64,000 nt of DNA from IMG/VR virus record IMGVR_UViG_3300025117_000038, positions 53,396 through 117,395 of that record; one strand, written 5' to 3'. This DNA comes from a virus. Made by a program: the position numbers and the translations under genes. The notes beneath the pieces were generated by a model, which was given only the letters and a program-made list of their open reading frames with translations, was not told the DNA's origin and made no database searches. Positions 4,140 to 64,000 of the stretch are shown piece after piece. Every line of letters starts with the position of its first letter. Position 1 is the stretch's first letter.

Positions 4140-5027
4140 ATGGACATTAAAGATAGACAAGCATTGGCAAAAGCATTTGCAGAAGAAGCTGCGAGTGCTA
4201 TGGAAACTCCCGAAACAAGGGAAGCCTTTGCTACGAAGATTGTTAAATATCTTCGAATGGACGTTCAACAGCGCGACCTTGCAGAATTAATGTTGACTAA
4301 GGATTATTTTGAACTTGGACAAACGCCGGAATATACTGAGTTTGCCGGACTGAAAGCCCACTGGCATGAGCCGGGGTCATATGCACCAAGAAGTGCCATG
4401 ACTCGTAAGGTTTTTACTGTTCCGACAGACATGATAAGTGTCCATCCAGAATATGAATTAGGGCAACTTAAATCTGGTCGCTACGGAACGATTTTAGACC
4501 AAATGGATTCAGCGAGAGATGAAATCCTCGGAGCTACCAATGCTCTTGTTTTTAACACTATTAAGGGGTCGATTGTGTCTGGTGATGCTAACTATTTCGC
4601 CGCAAGTGGACAGGTTACATTAGCGGCACTTGACCAAGCTATTAGTTGGGTTAATGACCACTCTAATGGTGTTAAGGCTATTGTCGGAAGGCGTAGCAGG
4701 TTGGATAAGATTCTTGGTTTGAATACAACCAGTGGTCCTTATTCTGATAGAATTTTGGACGAAATCATGAGAACCGGAGTTTTGTCAATTTATAAGGGTG
4801 CTCCTGTTATTGGACTACCTCAATACTACGACGGTTTCGGTCAAGCTACAATATCCCCTGACGATATTATCGTTCTTGGTGATAATGTTGGCCGTTATGT
4901 TGTAAAAGAGGAAGTTCAACAAATGAACGATATCGACATTGATACACTAAATTGGCATATGCATGTGTGGAGTAGACTCGGTTGCGCGATTTTCAAGCCC
5001 GAAAGAGCTGCACGTATTTATATGTAA
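4140..5027 (+). CDS. Major capsid protein (HK97 fold)
   Basis: About 295 aa, with HK97-like C-terminal signature GVLSIYKGAPVIGL...WSRLGCAIFKPERAARI. GGAGG RBS and expected gene order. Confidence 0.75.
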   Translation: MDIKDRQALAKAFAEEAASAMETPETREAFATKIVKYLRMDVQQRDLAELMLTKDYFELGQTPEYTEFAGLKAHWHEPGSYAPRSAMTRKVFTVPTDMISVHPEYELGQLKSGRYGTILDQMDSARDEILGATNALVFNTIKGSIVSGDANYFAASGQVTLAALDQAISWVNDHSNGVKAIVGRRSRLDKILGLNTTSGPYSDRILDEIMRTGVLSIYKGAPVIGLPQYYDGFGQATISPDDIIVLGDNVGRYVVKEEVQQMNDIDIDTLNWHMHVWSRLGCAIFKPERAARIYM

Positions 5028-5705: not shown

Positions 5706-6329
5706 ATGGCAGCTACTTGGGAAGTTACTGGTATCGCTGGAGATAGTAATACCGCTACTGCTGGGGCTGTTAGGGTTCCCATTAATGCTACGTCAGCAAT
5801 TGCATTTGGTGGTGGAACGAGGGGAACCGCATTATTAACGGCAATTCAAAAAGATGAAGTCGCGATGTCGATGCATATTTGCGATGCCGCATCAGAATCT
5901 GCTCATGATAGATGTGCTAGTCCTCATATGCATGTAATGGCATATGCAGCAACGGCAGGATATTGCTATAATGATACCGTATACGAAGCTATTTCGGTAG
6001 CATCTCCTCCAGCAGCAAGGGGTATTGAGTTTAGATTTGGATTTGATTCAGACGTTGAAATTACAGCATGTACAATTCATGCTGGAACTGGTGCTAATGT
6101 TGATGGTATGACTGAAAATTGTGGAATTTATTTTTGTGAAAGAAGCAATAGCAGTGCAGTGTGTGGGCAAGTTACATGGAGCAGAGCTTTTTACGGAAGT
6201 GCCTTAAGTCTACATCCATTTTCAACGGCAGCAAATTCAAGAGATTGGTATGTTGGAATTTCATTAAAAGCAACCGCAGTTGGTTTTGAGTCTGATAATA
6301 AAATTAAAATTGAAGCAACTTATCAATAG
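5706..6329 (+). CDS. Putative virion structural protein
   Basis: A/G/T-rich beta composition, RBS AAGGAG. Confidence 0.45.
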   Translation: MAATWEVTGIAGDSNTATAGAVRVPINATSAIAFGGGTRGTALLTAIQKDEVAMSMHICDAASESAHDRCASPHMHVMAYAATAGYCYNDTVYEAISVASPPAARGIEFRFGFDSDVEITACTIHAGTGANVDGMTENCGIYFCERSNSSAVCGQVTWSRAFYGSALSLHPFSTAANSRDWYVGISLKATAVGFESDNKIKIEATYQ

Positions 6330-6337
6330 GTGGTAAT

Positions 6338-6538
6338 ATGGATGAAACAAAAGGCGCAAAGCCCCTTGAAATAGTTGGTTCCGTATCTGTTTCGATTATG
6401 TCAGATGGGGTGTATTTATCATTTAGAGAAGAGCCTAAAACTGATGATGGTTGGGCGTCAACGGTTAATCTTCCATTTGCCATATATGAAAAATTTAAAG
6501 CTAATAAAGTAAAAATAACTGTTTCGAAGGCAGAATAG
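6338..6538 (+). CDS. Hypothetical protein
   Basis: Tightly packed ORF with RBS AGGTGG. Confidence 0.5.
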   Translation: MDETKGAKPLEIVGSVSVSIMSDGVYLSFREEPKTDDGWASTVNLPFAIYEKFKANKVKITVSKAE

Positions 6539-6546
6539 GGGGGATA

Positions 6547-6837
6547 ATGGTTGGTTTTGTAACATTATTATCGAGTACTGATGCTCAAACAGCATTCCCT
6601 TCTGGTTCTCATATTAAAATTAATGGGATATACCCATATCGATTGGTTGGTACAGCAGAAGCAACGGCATCGTTCTATAACGCTAGTGATGGTTTGATAT
6701 ATTTCTATACGGCGTATCAAAACCACCCTACTATTCCTATTACATTCCCCAATGGAGTAGAAACAAATGGTTTTGTTGTTAATACCGGAACCAACATAGG
6801 ATGCACGATAGCGGTTGAATTTTTATACGCAAACTAA
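6547..6837 (+). CDS. Small putative structural protein
   Basis: Beta-rich; ITFPNGVE...GFVV resembles small phage decoration proteins. Confidence 0.45.
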   Translation: MVGFVTLLSSTDAQTAFPSGSHIKINGIYPYRLVGTAEATASFYNASDGLIYFYTAYQNHPTIPITFPNGVETNGFVVNTGTNIGCTIAVEFLYAN

Positions 6838-6841
6838 AAAC

Positions 6842-6900
6842 GAGAAAGTATGCAGAAATCTCCTATTTGAACAAATGAAATATAAATAGGAGACTTTCTC
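6842..6900 (+). promoter_or_regulatory. Long bulged intergenic hairpin (terminator, attenuator or processing site)
   Basis: gagaaag(6842-48)/ctttctc(6894-6900) and tctcctattt(6859-68)/aaataggaga(6884-93). Confidence 0.45.
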
Positions 6901-6916
6901 TTATTTGGAGGATAGG

Positions 6917-7378
6917 ATGAATAATAAGTGGATGGTGAGTTTGTCTGACGGTCAGACAATCGTTGAGACAAAACTTATCAACAACGGAAACAAGCTGAGT
7001 CCTTGGTTGCAATTATTGAATTACTTAAGGAAAAATAAGGACAAAAAAATCCTAAGTATTCAGGTGGTAATAAATGGGAAAATTTATAATACTCCACGAC
7101 TGCAACATAAAACTAATGCTAAGTTTGTTGATTCCGATAAACCAGATAGACTATGGTGTTCTAAAAAAGCATCACAGATATTTGTAGGGGGATGGACTTA
7201 TTCATCTTCTTACGGTTTATCTTATCGTTTTGGTGACTATCGACATTATTTGTGGATAGACGAAAAAACAAACGAAACTCATACCGAAATAGTTCCAATC
7301 AAGGGTCACAGAGAAGAAGTAATAGAAAAATTCTATGACGAGGTAGTTGGTAATGAGTGCGACATTTCAACTATATAG
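6917..7378 (+). CDS. Hypothetical phage protein (W.V.LSDG.T motif)
   Basis: ORF with GGAGG RBS before ATG 6917. Confidence 0.55.
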   Translation: MNNKWMVSLSDGQTIVETKLINNGNKLSPWLQLLNYLRKNKDKKILSIQVVINGKIYNTPRLQHKTNAKFVDSDKPDRLWCSKKASQIFVGGWTYSSSYGLSYRFGDYRHYLWIDEKTNETHTEIVPIKGHREEVIEKFYDEVVGNECDISTI

Positions 7379-61224: not shown

Positions 61225-62290
61225 TATTTTGTTCCTTTATGAAACTTAAAATATGGGTAATTACATCCACCGTCCATCCATTTCCAATCATTTTATATCT
61301 CTGTGTATCACTCATCATTTTTTTGTTAAACGGAACCAATGTATAATTATCGGGAATAGTTTGAAGTCGTTCACATTCCAACGGAGACAATCTTCTCCAT
61401 CGGATATTATTAATAGCTATTTTTGGTTCTCTGTTTCCACCATTCATGGAATTAACGGTAGGACATTTTCCATTAATGTCATAAATTCTTTTTAATATAT
61501 CATGTCCGTTTATATTGGCAATTCCAACTTGTTTGCAATTGTGACTATTTACTTTTACTTTAGGTGCATTTGAGCTTCCTATTCCCCTTCCTCTTATTCC
61601 GGTTCCGGCACTTAATGTTTTTGATTTACCGGAGATATCATATATATTTCCATTCTGACCTGTTTTTGGATAAATATTTCCAACAATGTTAACAGTATTA
61701 TTAATTGGAACATATGAATACTTAAGATAATTTATACTATTATACATTTTATTTTCTTTATCATGTTCAATAATATCCTTAATAAATATATGTTTGTCGG
61801 ATGGGTCAACAATATTGGGAATATTAGTCCAATATAATCGGAATCTATTCTGAGCCGAAACTAATGAAGAGTTTATTTCATGTGGTTCTACTTTCATTAT
61901 TTGTGTAATTGTATCTCTCCATTCTTTTTTCATTCCCACGTTTTCAAGAAGAAAGTAAGTAGGTTTAACCTCTTCCAAAATTCTGACAAATTCAAAAAAC
62001 AGACGACTACGCGGGTCATTAAAATTTAATCCGCTTCCTGATTTTGAGAATCCCTGACAGGGACTGCCACCCATTAAGATATCGATAGTAGGAAGTTTGT
62101 CCGGCTTAATATTACAAACATCTCCAAGCTGTATCGTCTTAGGGTAATGATATTGTGTAACAGCTATGGCGTATCTATCAATTTCACTTGCGTAATAGTT
62201 ATTGATTGGGATTTGTAGCTTATTTAGAGCAATTTGTCCACAGCTTATCCCATCAAATAAACTTAAAACATTCATTTCATCCTGCTCCAT
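61214..62290 (-). CDS. dcm: C5-cytosine DNA methyltransferase
   Basis: LSLFDG, GGSPCQGFS, ENV, QNRFRLYW, ECERLQ, IGNGW. Confidence 0.93.
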   Translation of the reverse strand: MEQDEMNVLSLFDGISCGQIALNKLQIPINNYYASEIDRYAIAVTQYHYPKTIQLGDVCNIKPDKLPTIDILMGGSPCQGFSKSGSGLNFNDPRSRLFFEFVRILEEVKPTYFLLENVGMKKEWRDTITQIMKVEPHEINSSLVSAQNRFRLYWTNIPNIVDPSDKHIFIKDIIEHDKENKMYNSINYLKYSYVPINNTVNIVGNIYPKTGQNGNIYDISGKSKTLSAGTGIRGRGIGSSNAPKVKVNSHNCKQVGIANINGHDILKRIYDINGKCPTVNSMNGGNREPKIAINNIRWRRLSPLECERLQTIPDNYTLVPFNKKMMSDTQRYKMIGNGWTVDVITHILSFIKEQNNVE

Positions 62291-62301
62291 TAATTATACG
62301 C

Positions 62302-62433
62302 TTAATATTTAATTACTGCCAAATCTCCGATAACTGCTTCTGGCATACCGTCATAATGACGATAAATTAACGCTACCCAATCTGTTAGAATAGCATCATC
62401 TTCATAGAAACCAATTTGACATCTTGTGGGCAT
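62302..62433 (-). CDS. 43-aa ORF, short or truncated member of the phage M.TR..I...Y.H.DG.P family
   Basis: MPTRCQIGFYEDD...LIYRHYDGMPEAV, AGGAG RBS. Confidence 0.5.
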   Translation of the reverse strand: MPTRCQIGFYEDDAILTDWVALIYRHYDGMPEAVIGDLAVIKY

Positions 62434-62548
62434 TTGTATTCTCCTTATTATACCTTGTTTCATTTATTATACGCCAATGAGAGAGGAATCAATCAAAAAT
62501 CTTTATCATATACAAAATTAGTCTATATTAATGGAACCACCCCGTTTA

Positions 62549-62657
62549 TAACTTATTGATATTGTTAATGTTACACATGTGGACATTTTTTGGCAACAAA
62601 CACTTTCGAAAATGTAGAAATTAATAATTTTGTAAGTCGTTATTGTTCAATAAATTA
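62549..62657. repeat. Inverted pair of 27-bp motifs in the divergent control region
   Basis: 62549-75 taacttattga-N11-ttaca versus reverse complement of 62631-57 taatttattga-N11-ttaca. Confidence 0.6.
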
Positions 62658-62688
62658 AAAAATTTTTTATTTTTTTTAATTAAGCCTA

Positions 62689-62716
62689 TTGTTTTATGGT
62701 CGATAATCGTTATAAT
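62689..62716 (+). promoter_or_regulatory. Sigma70-like promoter for the ncRNA locus
   Basis: TTGTTT (62689-94), 16-nt spacer, perfect TATAAT (62711-16), preceded by an A/T UP-like tract. Confidence 0.6.
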
Positions 62717-62717
62717 A

Positions 62718-62935
62718 GTGACGCGAAAGCACTTGTTGTTTTGACAACTGAATCAGTCTGTAACGTCATCACTTGCGAGTGGTGGGTTGGCGCATGAAGT
62801 CCGACATACGACAGGCGAACAGATGGATAAAGTTTATCATTGCTTTGATAGCGAAGATATACGAAGCGGTCAGACCGCCTTTTTAGGATAATACAAACGG
62901 TATCTTGGCGCAGAGGATGATAAAAAGAAACCATT
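62718..62935 (+). ncRNA. Structured non-coding RNA domain of unknown class
   Basis: GC-richer than flanks. Stems gc-gaaa-gc, gttgtt/gacaac, gtctgt/acaggc enclosing catcact/agtggtg and gttgg/ccgac; atgg/ccat, tttatcat/atgataaa, aagatat/gtatctt, gcggt/accgc. Confidence 0.55.
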
Positions 62936-62991
62936 AAACAAATGAAAAATTATTAAATTTCATATAAAGATTTTTATTGTAGCACATTCAA

Positions 62992-63065
62992 GGCGGGAAA
63001 TGGTGGTTCGAATCCCCTCTCTCCTTAATTGGGGAGATAATATAATGGATAGTATACCCGCCGTC
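62992..63065 (+). ncRNA. Circularly permuted tRNA-like domain (3' half precedes 5' half; Asp-like)
   Basis: GGCGGG-AAAT-GGTGG-TTCGAAT-CCCC-TCTCTCC, linker TTAATT, then GGGGAGA-TA-ATAT-AATGGATA-GTAT-A-CCCGCC-GTC. Confidence 0.7.
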
Positions 63066-63237
63066 TACACTTGAAAGGACGAAACTTAAAAGATGAAATT
63101 ATGGGGATGAAGTAATGGTAACTTATTGGGCTTTCTGGTTTGTTCACTCAAACTGGTACAATCCCAAGTTGTGAGGTTCGATTCCTCACTCCCCATTATT
63201 TCAATGCATCATAGAGTGTACTGATGAGTCCGATGCA
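63063..63237 (+). ncRNA. Hammerhead-ribozyme-like core in non-circularly permuted strand order (cleavage site, GAAA, CUGAUGA)
   Basis: GTC-TACACT (63063-71) pairs with AGTGTA-CTGATGA (63215-27). GTCC (63228-31) pairs with GGAC-GAAAC (63077-85). Confidence 0.65.
63101..63196 (+). tRNA. tRNA-like gene with a 32-nt hairpin-containing insert in place of the 7-nt anticodon loop
   Basis: ATGGGGA/TCCCCAT acceptor, AAGT-AATGGTA-ACTT D arm, TTGGG/CCCAA anticodon stem, GTGAGG-TTCGATT-CCTCAC T arm. No encoded CCA and no assignable anticodon. Confidence 0.65.
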
Positions 63238-63241
63238 AAAG

Positions 63242-63417
63242 AGAATTGAGTGCATCTGAAAACGGGGTGTAAGTATCTTCCATAGCAGAGGGGTGCAAAT
63301 GCACTATGCGTTTCAAACGGGTAATATAATCGGGTGCGTCCTCGCCCGAATGGATACGGCCTCACCATTCAATACGAATGGCTCGGACTACGAGAACCGA
63401 GGGATGCACTCAATTCT
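63242..63417 (+). ncRNA. Multibranch RNA domain closed by a perfect 15-bp stem
   Basis: agaattgagtgcatc (63242-56)/gatgcactcaattct (63403-17). Inner stems gtgca/tgcac, ccattc/gaatgg, ctcgg/ccgag. Confidence 0.6.
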
Positions 63418-63430
63418 TTATTTCGATTAT

Positions 63431-63587
63431 GCCCTTGTAGCTCAGTGGTAGAGCGCATCGTATGTATGGTATATGTACATATATCGTAGATACAGTCGTC
63501 CCGTAAGACGACAGGTGGTCAAAGGTAGGGAAGTAGTAATGCATGACGAAACCCTATCAAGCGTAGGTTCGAATCCTATCGAGGGCA
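63431..63587 (+). tRNA. tRNA-like gene (Thr-like body) with 108 nt of structured sequence replacing anticodon and variable arms
   Basis: GCCCTTG/CGAGGGC acceptor plus discriminator A, GCTC-AGTGGTA-GAGC D arm, GTAGG-TTCGAAT-CCTAT T arm. Confidence 0.7.
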
Positions 63588-63642
63588 TCCTTTTTAAGAT
63601 AATATAAATTAAATCTGATACAAAACCTTACAGGAGAATGTT

Positions 63643-63846
63643 ATGAAAGACACAAGTTACGAAAAATTTCTTGCGATTCGCAAGAATCTTGCTGAAATAG
63701 TCGATATTTCATATCGACTTGGTTCGCGTCAATATAATAGCGATAGGAGTCTTCAAACTTCTATTAAGAGATTGACGAAAAAATTGGGTGAAAAAATTAC
63801 CGAACAACAGGTAAACGAAATCATTGATGGTGTAATAACATCTTAA
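63643..63846 (+). CDS. Small hypothetical (early) protein
   Basis: AGGAG RBS, 67-aa ORF. Confidence 0.55.
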   Translation: MKDTSYEKFLAIRKNLAEIVDISYRLGSRQYNSDRSLQTSIKRLTKKLGEKITEQQVNEIIDGVITS

Positions 63847-63857
63847 AAGGAGACAAA

Positions 63858-64000
63858 ATGTTACCATGTATTTTTTTTCAAACTCCAAAGACAATTATTC
63901 TTCACAATGAAAATTATCCCTATATTGAGCGATTGGACAATATAATAGGGATTGAAGAATATGGACACCCAAAAGGAGAATATACTTTTCACTTGAAAAA
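63858..64000 (+). CDS. Hypothetical protein, 3' truncated by window end
   Basis: AAGGAG RBS; MLPCIFFQTPKTIILHNENY... is open to the end. Confidence 0.5.
   Translation, partial: MLPCIFFQTPKTIILHNENYPYIERLDNIIGIEEYGHPKGEYTFHLK

What the first reader, a model, noticed from the sequence alone, without database searches (positions are those of the whole stretch)
62992..63237. Permuted tRNA fused to a rearranged hammerhead that would cut at its anticodon: candidate self-processing tRNA system
Seen: the permuted tRNA-like domain is open at the anticodon arm. Its 5'-half strand ends CCCGCC-GTC, and that GTC (63063-65) is exactly the NUH triplet of a complete hammerhead core, so cleavage would fall after 63065. 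GUC is also the Asp anticodon, and the D/anticodon region resembles tRNA-Asp (...AGTAT.CCCGCCTGTC) minus U33. Known: hammerhead cleavage leaves 2',3'-cyclic phosphate and 5'-OH ends, the substrates of RtcB. Permuted tRNAs of red algae and Thermofilum mature via splicing endonuclease and a circular intermediate. Phage tRNA-linked self-cleaving RNAs known to me are HDV-like (theta) and trim 3' trailers. Inference: this phage may use a ribozyme to define one end of a permuted tRNA, for ligation into a tRNA or circular RNA, or to release a pre-cut tRNA decoy. The other end reads ...AUUC-AAGGCGGG. Joining after UUC would give a 7-nt loop CGUCAAG (anticodon UCA), which is speculative because no second catalytic core was found.
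Basis: partly seen in the sequence, partly recalled or inferred. Interest (0 to 1): 0.93.

Follow-up and report, generated by a model that had tools for sequence, protein, structure and literature searches.

The report
Hammerhead ribozyme fused to tRNA look-alike
A groundwater phage encodes a back-to-front, sealed tRNA look-alike whose closing stem also serves as one arm of a rearranged self-cutting hammerhead RNA, so the RNA probably trims itself into a molecule resembling a broken tRNA; both parts are known kinds, but their fusion is new and untested.

Summary
62992-63062 is a tRNA cloverleaf written 3' half first. A 6-nt loop seals its acceptor stem, and its ends leave through a 6-bp 'anticodon' stem. 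ARAGORN calls it a tRNA only when the fragment is read as a circle (0 of 300 shuffles). The next bases, GUC, open a hammerhead with every core nucleotide, a 6-bp stem I, a 4-bp stem II and a 6-bp clamp (0 hits in 1,500 simulated genomes).

The rearranged order is known: it is the type-SGC permutation of Eckert et al. 2023. The sealed tRNA shape matches YrlA-type Y RNAs, which this scan has noted in other phages without a hammerhead. The Ro60 handle, the Ro60 gene and the Rfam model are all absent here.

Three things are new:
- the fusion itself, in which the tRNA stem supplies all but 2 bp of stem III;
- a second tRNA-like domain inside the ribozyme;
- the DNA-phage setting.

The genome is a circle, with RtcB 5.4 kb downstream on the same strand. 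Most likely the ribozyme makes the cyclic-phosphate 3' end of a tRNA mimic. Maturation into a working tRNA is unlikely: no second cutter, no U33, a weak T stem, the standard code. No divergent homologue was found, so there is no covariation evidence, and cleavage is untested.

The parts
62992..63062 (+). Sealed, circularly permuted tRNA-like domain. Anticodon-stem 3' strand 62992-97; variable 62998-63001; T arm 63002-17; acceptor hairpin 63018-37 (7 bp, loop UUAAUU); U8-A9 63038-39; D arm 63040-55; A26 63056; anticodon-stem 5' strand 63057-62.
   Evidence: Sequence; fold; ARAGORN with circular topology calls a tRNA, versus 0 of 300 shuffles.
63063..63065 (+). Hammerhead block S: G16.2 U16.1 C17. 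The predicted cut is after 63065. G63063 and U63064 form the only two local stem III pairs, with C63085 and A63084.
   Evidence: Sequence; descriptor scans.
63066..63085 (+). Stem I 5' strand UACACU (63066-71), linker UGAAA (63072-76), stem II 3' strand GGAC (63077-80), GAAA (63081-84) and C15.2 (63085). Block G follows block S directly.
   Evidence: Sequence; duplex energies of stem I -4.8 and stem II -3.8 kcal/mol; layout as in type-SGC.
63093..63203 (+). Insert in the ribozyme's G-to-C connector: tRNA-like domain 2 (63102-63195). It has an acceptor stem, a D arm and a T arm. Its anticodon arm is lengthened to an 8-bp hairpin with loop UUCACU. The insert is closed by a flank helix (63094-99 with 63198-63203).
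   Evidence: Fold; ARAGORN with introns; weak tRNA-Sec model match, 14.8 bits. One contig from an RNA library lacks exactly this stretch.
63205..63237 (+). Clamp helix UGCAUC (63205-10) / GAUGCA (63232-37) enclosing block C: stem I 3' strand AGUGUA (63215-20), CUGAUGA (63221-27) and stem II 5' strand GUCC (63228-31).
   Evidence: Sequence; folds; clamp energy -6.5 kcal/mol. It corresponds to the stem I/II interaction helix of type-SGC ribozymes.
62978..62991 (+). 5' flank. UGUAG-C-AC can pair with GU-CUACA (63063-69) as a competitor of stem I. CAUUCAA does not form a stable third helix with UUAAAAG (63086-92). The transcript start is unknown.
   Evidence: MFE fold; duplex energies -4.4 and +2.5 kcal/mol; no promoter-like site on the + strand in the simple scan.

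Best explanation
This is a type-SGC (non-circularly permuted) hammerhead ribozyme built onto a sealed, back-to-front tRNA look-alike. It lies at the head of a phage early transcription unit.

Proposed mechanism:
- The tRNA look-alike folds first.
- Its 6-bp closing ('anticodon') stem is continued by the two pairs G63063-C63085 and U63064-A63084. The tRNA stem therefore acts as the outer part of hammerhead stem III.
- The CUGAUGA strand is transcribed about 150 nt later, held in a hairpin clamp. Stems I and II then form and the RNA cuts itself after C63065.
- This releases the tRNA look-alike with a 3-nt tail ending in a 2',3'-cyclic phosphate. The downstream RNA (tRNA-like 2, a 180-nt structured RNA, tRNA-like 3, then the early genes) starts with a 5'-OH.

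Why a ribozyme would be needed: the ends of this look-alike sit on the anticodon side, where RNase P and RNase Z cannot make them.

Shown here: the anatomy, its statistical significance, the gene context, and presence of part of the locus in an RNA library.

Inferred: cleavage, coaxial use of the tRNA stem, and what the released tRNA mimic does.
For: Hammerhead anatomy:
- All hammerhead core positions are present, with a 6-bp stem I and a 4-bp stem II with G10.1-C11.1. A 6-bp clamp surrounds block C.
- The strict descriptor gives 1 hit in the genome and 0 in 1,500 simulated genomes.
- Published type-SGC ribozymes share four features with this RNA: the block order S-G-C, a short linker from stem I to stem II, a helix tying the other sides of stems I and II, and a variable connector. 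They cleave at the analogous site in vitro (PMC10085705, sections 13 and 14).

Fusion with the tRNA look-alike:
- GUC follows the last pair of the tRNA stem with no spacer, and GGCGGG has the right polarity to continue the 15.x strand.
- The second tRNA-like domain is closed by its own helix, so it leaves the connector effectively short.
- A 170-nt contig from an RNA library joins the 13 letters of 63080-92 directly to 63204-63358. This is the compact ribozyme without that insert. Its G and C blocks are unchanged, while 3 substitutions fall downstream.

Context:
- The locus sits between a divergent minus-strand gene block and plus-strand small ORFs.
- The genome closes into a circle.
- RtcB, which acts on cyclic-phosphate and 5'-OH ends, lies 5.4 kb downstream on the same strand.
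Against: - Local stem III is only 2 bp. In the published SGC-3 ribozyme, disrupting stem III abolished cleavage.
- The possible third helix at the junction is unstable, at +2.5 kcal/mol.
- An upstream stretch can pair with the cleavage-site strand about as well as stem I does (-4.4 against -4.8 kcal/mol).
- No Rfam hammerhead model matches, although pseudoknotted permutations are not expected to match.
- No divergent homologue was found in any collection, so no stem is supported by covariation.
- No read-level evidence of a cut exists.
- The authors discuss that the new permutations may not be conducive to highly efficient cleavage.
Confidence: 0.55

Rival explanations
1. Nicked-tRNA mimic. 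After self-cleavage (and perhaps an RNase P cut in the sealed acceptor loop), the look-alike imitates a tRNA broken in its anticodon loop, with a 2',3'-cyclic phosphate on the 5' half. It would then engage proteins that sense or repair such damage. Candidates are the phage RtcB, a host RtcR-type sensor that switches on RNA repair, or an anticodon nuclease for which it serves as a decoy.
For: - Chen and Wolin built exactly such a molecule: a circularly permuted tRNA with the acceptor end replaced by a tetraloop, ribozymes on both sides, and a cyclic phosphate end. It bound full-length RtcR better than a tRNA half, and RtcB sealed it (PMC10159003, passages).
- The phage encodes RtcB on the same strand, 5.4 kb downstream.
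- A YrlA with a 7-bp acceptor stem is cut by RNase P and receives CCA (PMC4201824). The acceptor stem here also has 7 bp.
Against: - No binding or repair data exist.
- The host is unknown, so whether it has RtcR or an anticodon nuclease is unknown.
- RtcB is common in phages (682 of 50,697 records), so its presence is weak evidence.
- The 5' end of the mimic is undefined, and a primary transcript end would be a triphosphate, not the 5'-OH of a real nick.
Confidence: 0.15
2. The ribozyme defines one end of a permuted tRNA gene, and a ligase (RtcB) joins the ends. RNase P and 3' processing then open the acceptor loop, giving a working tRNA (anticodon UCA) or a circular RNA.
For: - Read as a circle, 62990-63065 is called a tRNA with a 7-nt loop and anticodon UCA.
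- RtcB is encoded by the phage.
- Permuted tRNA genes that mature through a circular intermediate exist in other organisms (cited in PMC10085705).
Against: - There is no second ribozyme or cutter for the 5' end.
- The loop has G at position 33.
- The T stem has 4 bp with a bulged U, so the acceptor-T stack is one pair short.
- The large genes are intact under table 11, so no UGA suppressor is needed.
- Other fragment choices give other anticodons, so UCA is not singled out.
- The phage already has 12 ordinary tRNAs elsewhere.
Confidence: 0.05
3. Y RNA of the YrlA type. The sealed tRNA look-alike is the effector module of a Ro60-binding RNA, and the hammerhead merely happens to lie next to it.
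For: - The order variable, T arm, acceptor stem-loop, D arm between two closing strands is that of YrlA (PMC4201824).
- Earlier notes of this scan describe many such mimics in phages (these are AI notes, used as leads only).
- Another structured RNA in this phage's tRNA island carries the string GUCGAAG, which fits the YrlA motif.
Against: - The Rfam YrlA model gives no match here at E<=10.
- No GNCGAAN0-1G string lies on the 5' strand.
- No TROVE/Ro60 gene is found in the whole circular genome.
- The closing stem runs straight into the ribozyme instead of a long handle.
Confidence: 0.1
4. Inactive relic. The hammerhead core is a decayed or mis-assembled remnant, for instance of a type II hammerhead whose GAAA block moved. 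The three odd tRNA-like domains would be damaged copies of phage tRNA genes, cut apart only by RNase P and RNase Z.
For: - Stem III has 2 bp.
- The three tRNA-like domains resemble the phage's own Gln, Met and Thr tRNAs (by eye).
- A 9-mer that recurs in the genome sits in the altered arm of tRNA-like 2, as if something had been inserted there.
- No conservation data are available.
Against: - A relic would not be expected to keep every core nucleotide, perfect stems I and II and the clamp helix.
- The compact form in a 98%-identical relative keeps the G and C blocks unchanged.
- Sealing and permuting a tRNA is not what decay produces.
- The neighbouring RNAs fold far better than shuffles, with z-scores of -4.45 and -3.71.
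Confidence: 0.15

Closest known systems
Type-SGC hammerhead ribozymes (HRIMA-1 motif and type-SGC variants; Eckert, Friedrich, Weinberg and Weinberg 2023, PMC10085705; sections 13-15 and passages read)
   Same: - Block order: cleavage site, then GAAA, then CUGAnGA.
- A short linker runs from stem I straight into stem II.
- A helix ties the other sides of stems I and II.
- The core nucleotides are the same.
- A variable connector lies between the GAAA block and the clamp.
   Different: - The linker has 5 nt, against typically 3.
- Local stem III has only 2 bp and is extended by the stem of a tRNA-like domain.
- The connector is 119 nt and holds a second tRNA-like domain; the paper gives 0-44 nt.
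- This one is encoded in a DNA phage. The paper says almost all of its motifs were seen only in metatranscriptomes.
- The paper's alignments are in supplements that I could not open.
YrlA-type Y RNAs of bacteria and phages (Chen et al. 2014, PMC4201824, passages read; Rfam RF02553)
   Same: - A tRNA-like module with T arm, acceptor stem closed by a loop, and D arm.
- The RNA's ends are on the anticodon side.
- A 7-bp acceptor stem, as in the M. smegmatis RNA that RNase P cuts.
- Genomic company of RtcB, as in the Salmonella rsr-yrl-rtcBA locus (recalled).
   Different: - No Ro60-binding handle or GNCGAA string.
- No Ro60 gene in the phage.
- No match to the Rfam model.
- The 3' end is apparently made by a ribozyme fused to the closing stem.
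Engineered circularly permuted nicked tRNA-Leu flanked by hammerhead and HDV ribozymes (Chen and Wolin 2023, PMC10159003, passages read)
   Same: - A permuted tRNA with a loop-sealed acceptor end.
- Its ends are in the anticodon loop.
- A ribozyme-made 2',3'-cyclic phosphate on the 5'-half side.
   Different: - That construct is synthetic.
- It has a second ribozyme that makes the 5'-OH, and it keeps the anticodon-loop nucleotides.
- Here only one ribozyme is present and most of the loop is missing.
Circularly permuted tRNA genes that mature through a circular intermediate (Soma 2014, cited in PMC10085705; organisms recalled: Cyanidioschyzon merolae, Thermofilum)
   Same: The 3' half is encoded before the 5' half, joined through the acceptor ends.
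   Different: - Those use the splicing endonuclease at bulge-helix-bulge motifs and yield complete tRNAs.
- Here there is no such motif, no complete anticodon loop and a bacterial-virus setting.
Theta (HDV-like) ribozymes next to phage tRNAs (Kienbeck et al. 2024, PMC10879173; search listing and start of abstract only)
   Same: A self-cleaving ribozyme physically linked to a phage tRNA-type gene.
   Different: - The ribozyme class is different.
- Theta ribozymes are linked to normal suppressor tRNAs in recoded phages.
- Here the ribozyme is a hammerhead, the tRNA is permuted and sealed, and the code is standard.

Membership tests
Type-SGC hammerhead ribozyme | Conserved core: CUGAnGA, GAAA, an NUH cleavage triplet with U16.1-A15.1, and G10.1-C11.1 | tested here: met
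   CUGAUGA is at 63221-27, GAAA at 63081-84 and GUC at 63063-65; G63228 pairs with C63080.
Type-SGC hammerhead ribozyme | Block order S, G, C, with stem I joined to stem II by a short linker | tested here: met
   S is at 63063-71, the linker UGAAA follows, G is at 63077-85 and C at 63215-31. Definition.
Type-SGC hammerhead ribozyme | Stems I and II formed by complementary strands | tested here: met
   There are 6 and 4 Watson-Crick pairs. The strict descriptor gives 0 hits in 1,500 simulated genomes.
Type-SGC hammerhead ribozyme | Helix tying the far sides of stems I and II | tested here: met
   UGCAUC (63205-10) pairs with GAUGCA (63232-37), -6.5 kcal/mol.
Type-SGC hammerhead ribozyme | Stem III formed by the strand before the cut and the strand after GAAA | tested here: inconclusive
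   Only 2 local pairs form. The other six pairs of that strand are made with 62992-97 of the tRNA-like domain, and the third helix at the junction is unstable. Stem III was needed in SGC-3.
Type-SGC hammerhead ribozyme | Site-specific self-cleavage, and covariation in the stems | not testable with these tools
   There is no bench here. No divergent homologue was found in phages, IMG/VR, metagenome contigs or genome contigs.
YrlA-type Y RNA (RF02553) | tRNA-like module in the order variable, T arm, sealed acceptor, D arm | tested here: met
   order as described in PMC4201824.
YrlA-type Y RNA (RF02553) | Ro60-binding helix with GNCGAAN0-1G on the 5' strand | tested here: not met
   The string is absent from 62940-62997.
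YrlA-type Y RNA (RF02553) | Match to the family's covariance model | tested here: not met
   No match at this locus at E<=10. The 4 weak matches in the genome lie elsewhere.
YrlA-type Y RNA (RF02553) | Ro60 (TROVE) gene nearby | tested here: not met
   No PF05731 match at E<=1 in the 117-kb genome, which closes into a circle. The host genome is unknown.
Circularly permuted tRNA gene that matures to a working tRNA | Complete anticodon loop after joining, plus a processing signal at both ends | tested here: not met
   Only one cutter is present. A 7-nt loop arises only for a 5' end at 62990, and it has G33. No second ribozyme was found.
Two-piece (permuted) tmRNA | Acceptor piece before coding piece, with a tag reading frame | tested here: not met
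   ARAGORN's tmRNA search found none in the genome. The permuted tmRNA models hit only the T arm of tRNA-like 2, at 8.7-9.4 bits.

The most novel reading that the evidence does not exclude
The phage makes, by ribozyme self-cleavage, a natural 'pre-broken tRNA'. This would be a sealed tRNA body that ends in a 2',3'-cyclic phosphate at the anticodon side. The ribozyme would fire only once the tRNA body has folded, because that body supplies its stem III. The product would act on the machinery that senses or mends cut tRNAs. It could feed or occupy the phage's RtcB, trigger a host RtcR-type repair response, or decoy an anticodon nuclease used in anti-phage defence.
Probability: 0.15. Interest if true: 0.85.

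Novelty: new variant of a known kind. Interest (0 to 1): 0.62.

Why it matters
In the paper that defined them, type-SGC hammerheads were almost entirely an RNA-world curiosity of metatranscriptomes. A copy in a DNA phage would give the class a genetic system and a job, and this copy is wired into a tRNA-shaped RNA.

If the tRNA stem really completes stem III, this would be a ribozyme whose activity depends on the folding of its cargo. That is a simple quality-control design.

The predicted product has the same features as a laboratory construct (PMC10159003): a sealed tRNA body, an open anticodon side and a cyclic phosphate. In that study the construct was a ligand for the sensor of the bacterial RNA repair operon. 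The locus therefore offers a direct test of whether phages manipulate tRNA-damage sensing or repair with an RNA.

If cleavage fails, it is still a clear example of a phage RNA island made of tRNA bodies with replaced anticodon arms.

Tried and rejected
Homologue hunts, all without a relative that differs in sequence:
- blastn of 62900-63620 against 50,697 phage records found no match.
- An IMG/VR scan for the S-G block with free stems gave 49 stretches, none with a matching CUGAUGA strand.
- An IMG/VR scan for the G block, 120-150 nt, then the C block gave 1 stretch. It is an ordinary type II hammerhead with a long stem III.
- A scan for the clamp plus C block gave 0 stretches.
- The metagenome contig scan gave 4 stretches. 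One (L179) is identical to the window and three are unrelated.
- The genome contig scan gave 28 stretches, 0 with a matching C block.
- Neighbour proteins used as anchors in IMG/VR (the methylase; RtcB) found no relative.
- The 67-aa ORF downstream has one 94%-identical relative, on a 642-nt contig.

Readings rejected:
- tmRNA reading.
- Stop-codon recoding: ORF sets under table 11 and with each stop read through show intact large genes under table 11.
- A stable third helix at the tRNA/ribozyme junction: +2.5 kcal/mol.
- A second use of the CUGAUGA strand with the GAC-GAAAC of tRNA-like 3 (63545-53): no cleavage triplet is available there (by eye).
- The three substitutions in the RNA-library contig do not test any helix.

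Run-based observations that carry no weight:
- The RNA-library contig starts 14 nt downstream of the predicted cut and does not reach the tRNA-like domain. It has depth 5, and contig ends prove nothing.
- Small-share DNA runs X7 and X9 gave only short identical pieces, plus an unrelated tRNA.
- The missing 63093-63203 in that contig has a 3-nt ATG overlap at the joint. It removes exactly a helix-closed domain. It may be a strain difference, a reverse-transcriptase skip or RNA processing, and I cannot tell which.

Not available:
- Supplements of PMC10085705 (type-SGC alignments) were closed. They might hold this or a similar sequence.
- Literature searches found no natural fusion of a permuted tRNA and a hammerhead in the held library.
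Full report
**Where it is.** The window is the last 64 kb of a 117,395-base virus contig. An independent metagenome contig (L179) is identical to window 61807-64000 over 2,194 bases. It then continues, at 100% identity over 2,706 bases, into positions 140-2845 of the same contig, and the contig's two ends share about 127 bases. The genome is therefore a circle, or is terminally redundant. The finding lies in a gene-free stretch between a minus-strand replication and repair block (clamp-loader-like protein, RuvB-like protein, C5 methylase) and a long row of small plus-strand ORFs. That row leads to an ECF-type sigma factor, RtcB (384 aa, 244 bits to PF01139) and a radical SAM protein. RtcB starts about 5.4 kb downstream of the RNA array, on the same strand. 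The phage uses the standard code. It has 12 ordinary tRNA genes elsewhere.

**The tRNA look-alike.** Positions 62992-63062 read, in order:
- the anticodon-stem 3' strand;
- a 4-nt variable stretch;
- a T arm with the loop UUCGAAU;
- the acceptor 3' strand, a 6-nt loop and the acceptor 5' strand (7 pairs);
- U-A;
- a D arm with GG in its loop;
- one A, then the anticodon-stem 5' strand.

RNAfold recovers the closing stem, the acceptor hairpin and the D arm. ARAGORN sees no tRNA in the linear window. Told to read fragments as circles, it calls a tRNA in 11 of 110 start/end choices, including 62990-63065. It called 0 of 300 shuffles of that fragment. The permuted, sealed cloverleaf is therefore real.

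It is not a good tRNA. The T stem has 4 pairs and a bulged U. There is no anticodon loop.

**The ribozyme.** GUC (63063-65) follows the last pair of the tRNA stem without a spacer. After it come:
- UACACU, then UGAAA, then GGAC-GAAA-C;
- 135 nt further on, AGUGUA-CUGAUGA-GUCC;
- the pair UGCAUC/GAUGCA, which encloses that last segment.

Every core position of a hammerhead is present, and stems I (6 bp) and II (4 bp) are perfect. A strict descriptor finds this site once in the genome and never in 1,500 simulated genomes. A lenient descriptor finds 10 in 300 simulated genomes. The extra 6-bp clamp is not part of either count.

The order of the three blocks (site, GAAA, CUGAnGA) cannot be reached by circular permutation. 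It is the type-SGC permutation that Eckert et al. described and showed to cleave at the analogous site. That type has a short linker from stem I into stem II and a helix tying the other sides of these stems (PMC10085705). Rfam has no model that matches, even on 271 bases with lax filters.

**What is unusual.**
1. Local stem III is only two pairs: U63064-A63084 and G63063-C63085. The rest of that strand (CCCGCC) is paired with GGCGGG of the tRNA look-alike, which has the polarity to continue the helix. The tRNA stem can therefore stack as the outer part of stem III. The two strands that leave at the junction do not form a stable third helix (+2.5 kcal/mol). In the published SGC-3 ribozyme, stem III was required, so this is the main doubt about activity.
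2. The connector between the GAAA block and the clamp is 119 nt, against 0-44 nt in the paper. It holds a second tRNA-like domain (63102-63195), closed by its own helix. Its anticodon arm is replaced by an 8-bp hairpin.
3. The paper found almost all of its motifs only in metatranscriptomes. This one is in a DNA phage.

**Evidence from sequencing runs.**
- The stretch occurs at full length in six groundwater or soil DNA runs that may be the source. That is not independent support.
- One sediment RNA library holds a 170-nt contig that covers 63204-63358 with 3 substitutions. The contig is preceded by 13 letters identical to 63080-63092 (tables 7 and 8). This is the compact ribozyme without the 63093-63203 insert. 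The GAAA and CUGAUGA blocks are unchanged in it.
- This shows that a near relative, or an RNA form, exists in which the ribozyme stands without tRNA-like 2. It also shows that the locus is present in an RNA library. It does not show a cut.

**Comparison with known tRNA mimics.** The order variable, T arm, sealed acceptor, D arm is that of YrlA Y RNAs. One of these, with a 7-bp acceptor stem, is cut by RNase P and receives CCA (PMC4201824). Earlier notes of this scan report many such mimics in phages, none with a fused hammerhead among those shown. Membership fails here on three counts:
- no match to RF02553;
- no GNCGAA string;
- no Ro60 gene in the circular genome.

The closest functional analogue is synthetic. 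It is a permuted, loop-sealed tRNA flanked by ribozymes and ending in a cyclic phosphate. It was built to mimic a nicked tRNA. It bound RtcR better than a tRNA half did, and RtcB sealed it (PMC10159003).

**Conclusion.**
- I put 0.55 on the reading that the ribozyme is active and makes the 3' end of the sealed tRNA mimic. RNase P and RNase Z cannot make that end.
- I put 0.15 on the bolder reading that the product works as a pre-broken tRNA toward RtcB, RtcR or anticodon nucleases.
- I put 0.05 on maturation into a working tRNA.
- I put 0.15 on an inactive relic.

No covariation test was possible, because every search for a divergent relative failed.

Noticed in passing
window 63238-63420 (+): A roughly 180-nt RNA closed by an 18-bp stem, with several inner hairpins, lies directly behind the ribozyme. 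Its fold z-score is -4.45, and 0 of 200 shuffles fold as well. It matches no Rfam family.
   Followed up: partly
window 63431-63587 (+): A third tRNA-like RNA is the only Rfam tRNA match in the window (43.9 bits). It has good acceptor, D and T arms like the phage's tRNA-Thr. About 100 nt replace the anticodon arm: a 4-bp stem holding two hairpins, plus a long hairpin with an AGUA/GAA internal loop. Fold z-score is -3.71.
   Followed up: partly
G000:C1:4883-6037 (+), outside the window; the window end joins G000:C1:140: The contig closes into a circle, shown by the bridging contig L179. This places an RtcB RNA ligase gene 5.4 kb downstream of the RNA array on the same strand. It is preceded by an ECF-type sigma factor (4161-4661) and followed by a radical SAM protein (6195-7169).
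   Followed up: yes
window 63140-63148 and 59789 (minus strand); G000:C1 +10814, +25694, -17921: The 9-mer TTGTTCACT occurs 5 times exactly in the genome. Four copies follow a 10-bp hairpin in intergenic spots. The fifth forms the tip of the lengthened arm of tRNA-like 2. A one-mismatch copy lies in the insert of another odd tRNA-like RNA at G000:C1:24752-24863 (-). This may be a protein site, a processing signal or a small inserted element.
   Followed up: partly
G000:C1 25590-26177 (-) and about 31899 (+), outside the window: The phage's tRNA island holds further T-arm-bearing structured RNAs that ARAGORN does not call as tRNAs. One contains GUCGAAG, which fits the GNCGAAN0-1G string given for YrlA Y RNAs. 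The Rfam YrlA model gives only weak matches there (best 15.1 bits).
   Followed up: no
window 62866-62885 (both strands): A two-way terminator-like hairpin lies about 100 nt upstream of the tRNA look-alike. The RNA array therefore probably has its own start in the AT-rich 62886-62990 stretch. The simple sigma-70 scan found no plus-strand promoter there.
   Followed up: partly
L056 10870-11012 (another virus contig): This is an ordinary type II hammerhead whose stem III carries an insert of about 100 nt. It was found by chance with the gap pattern.
   Followed up: no
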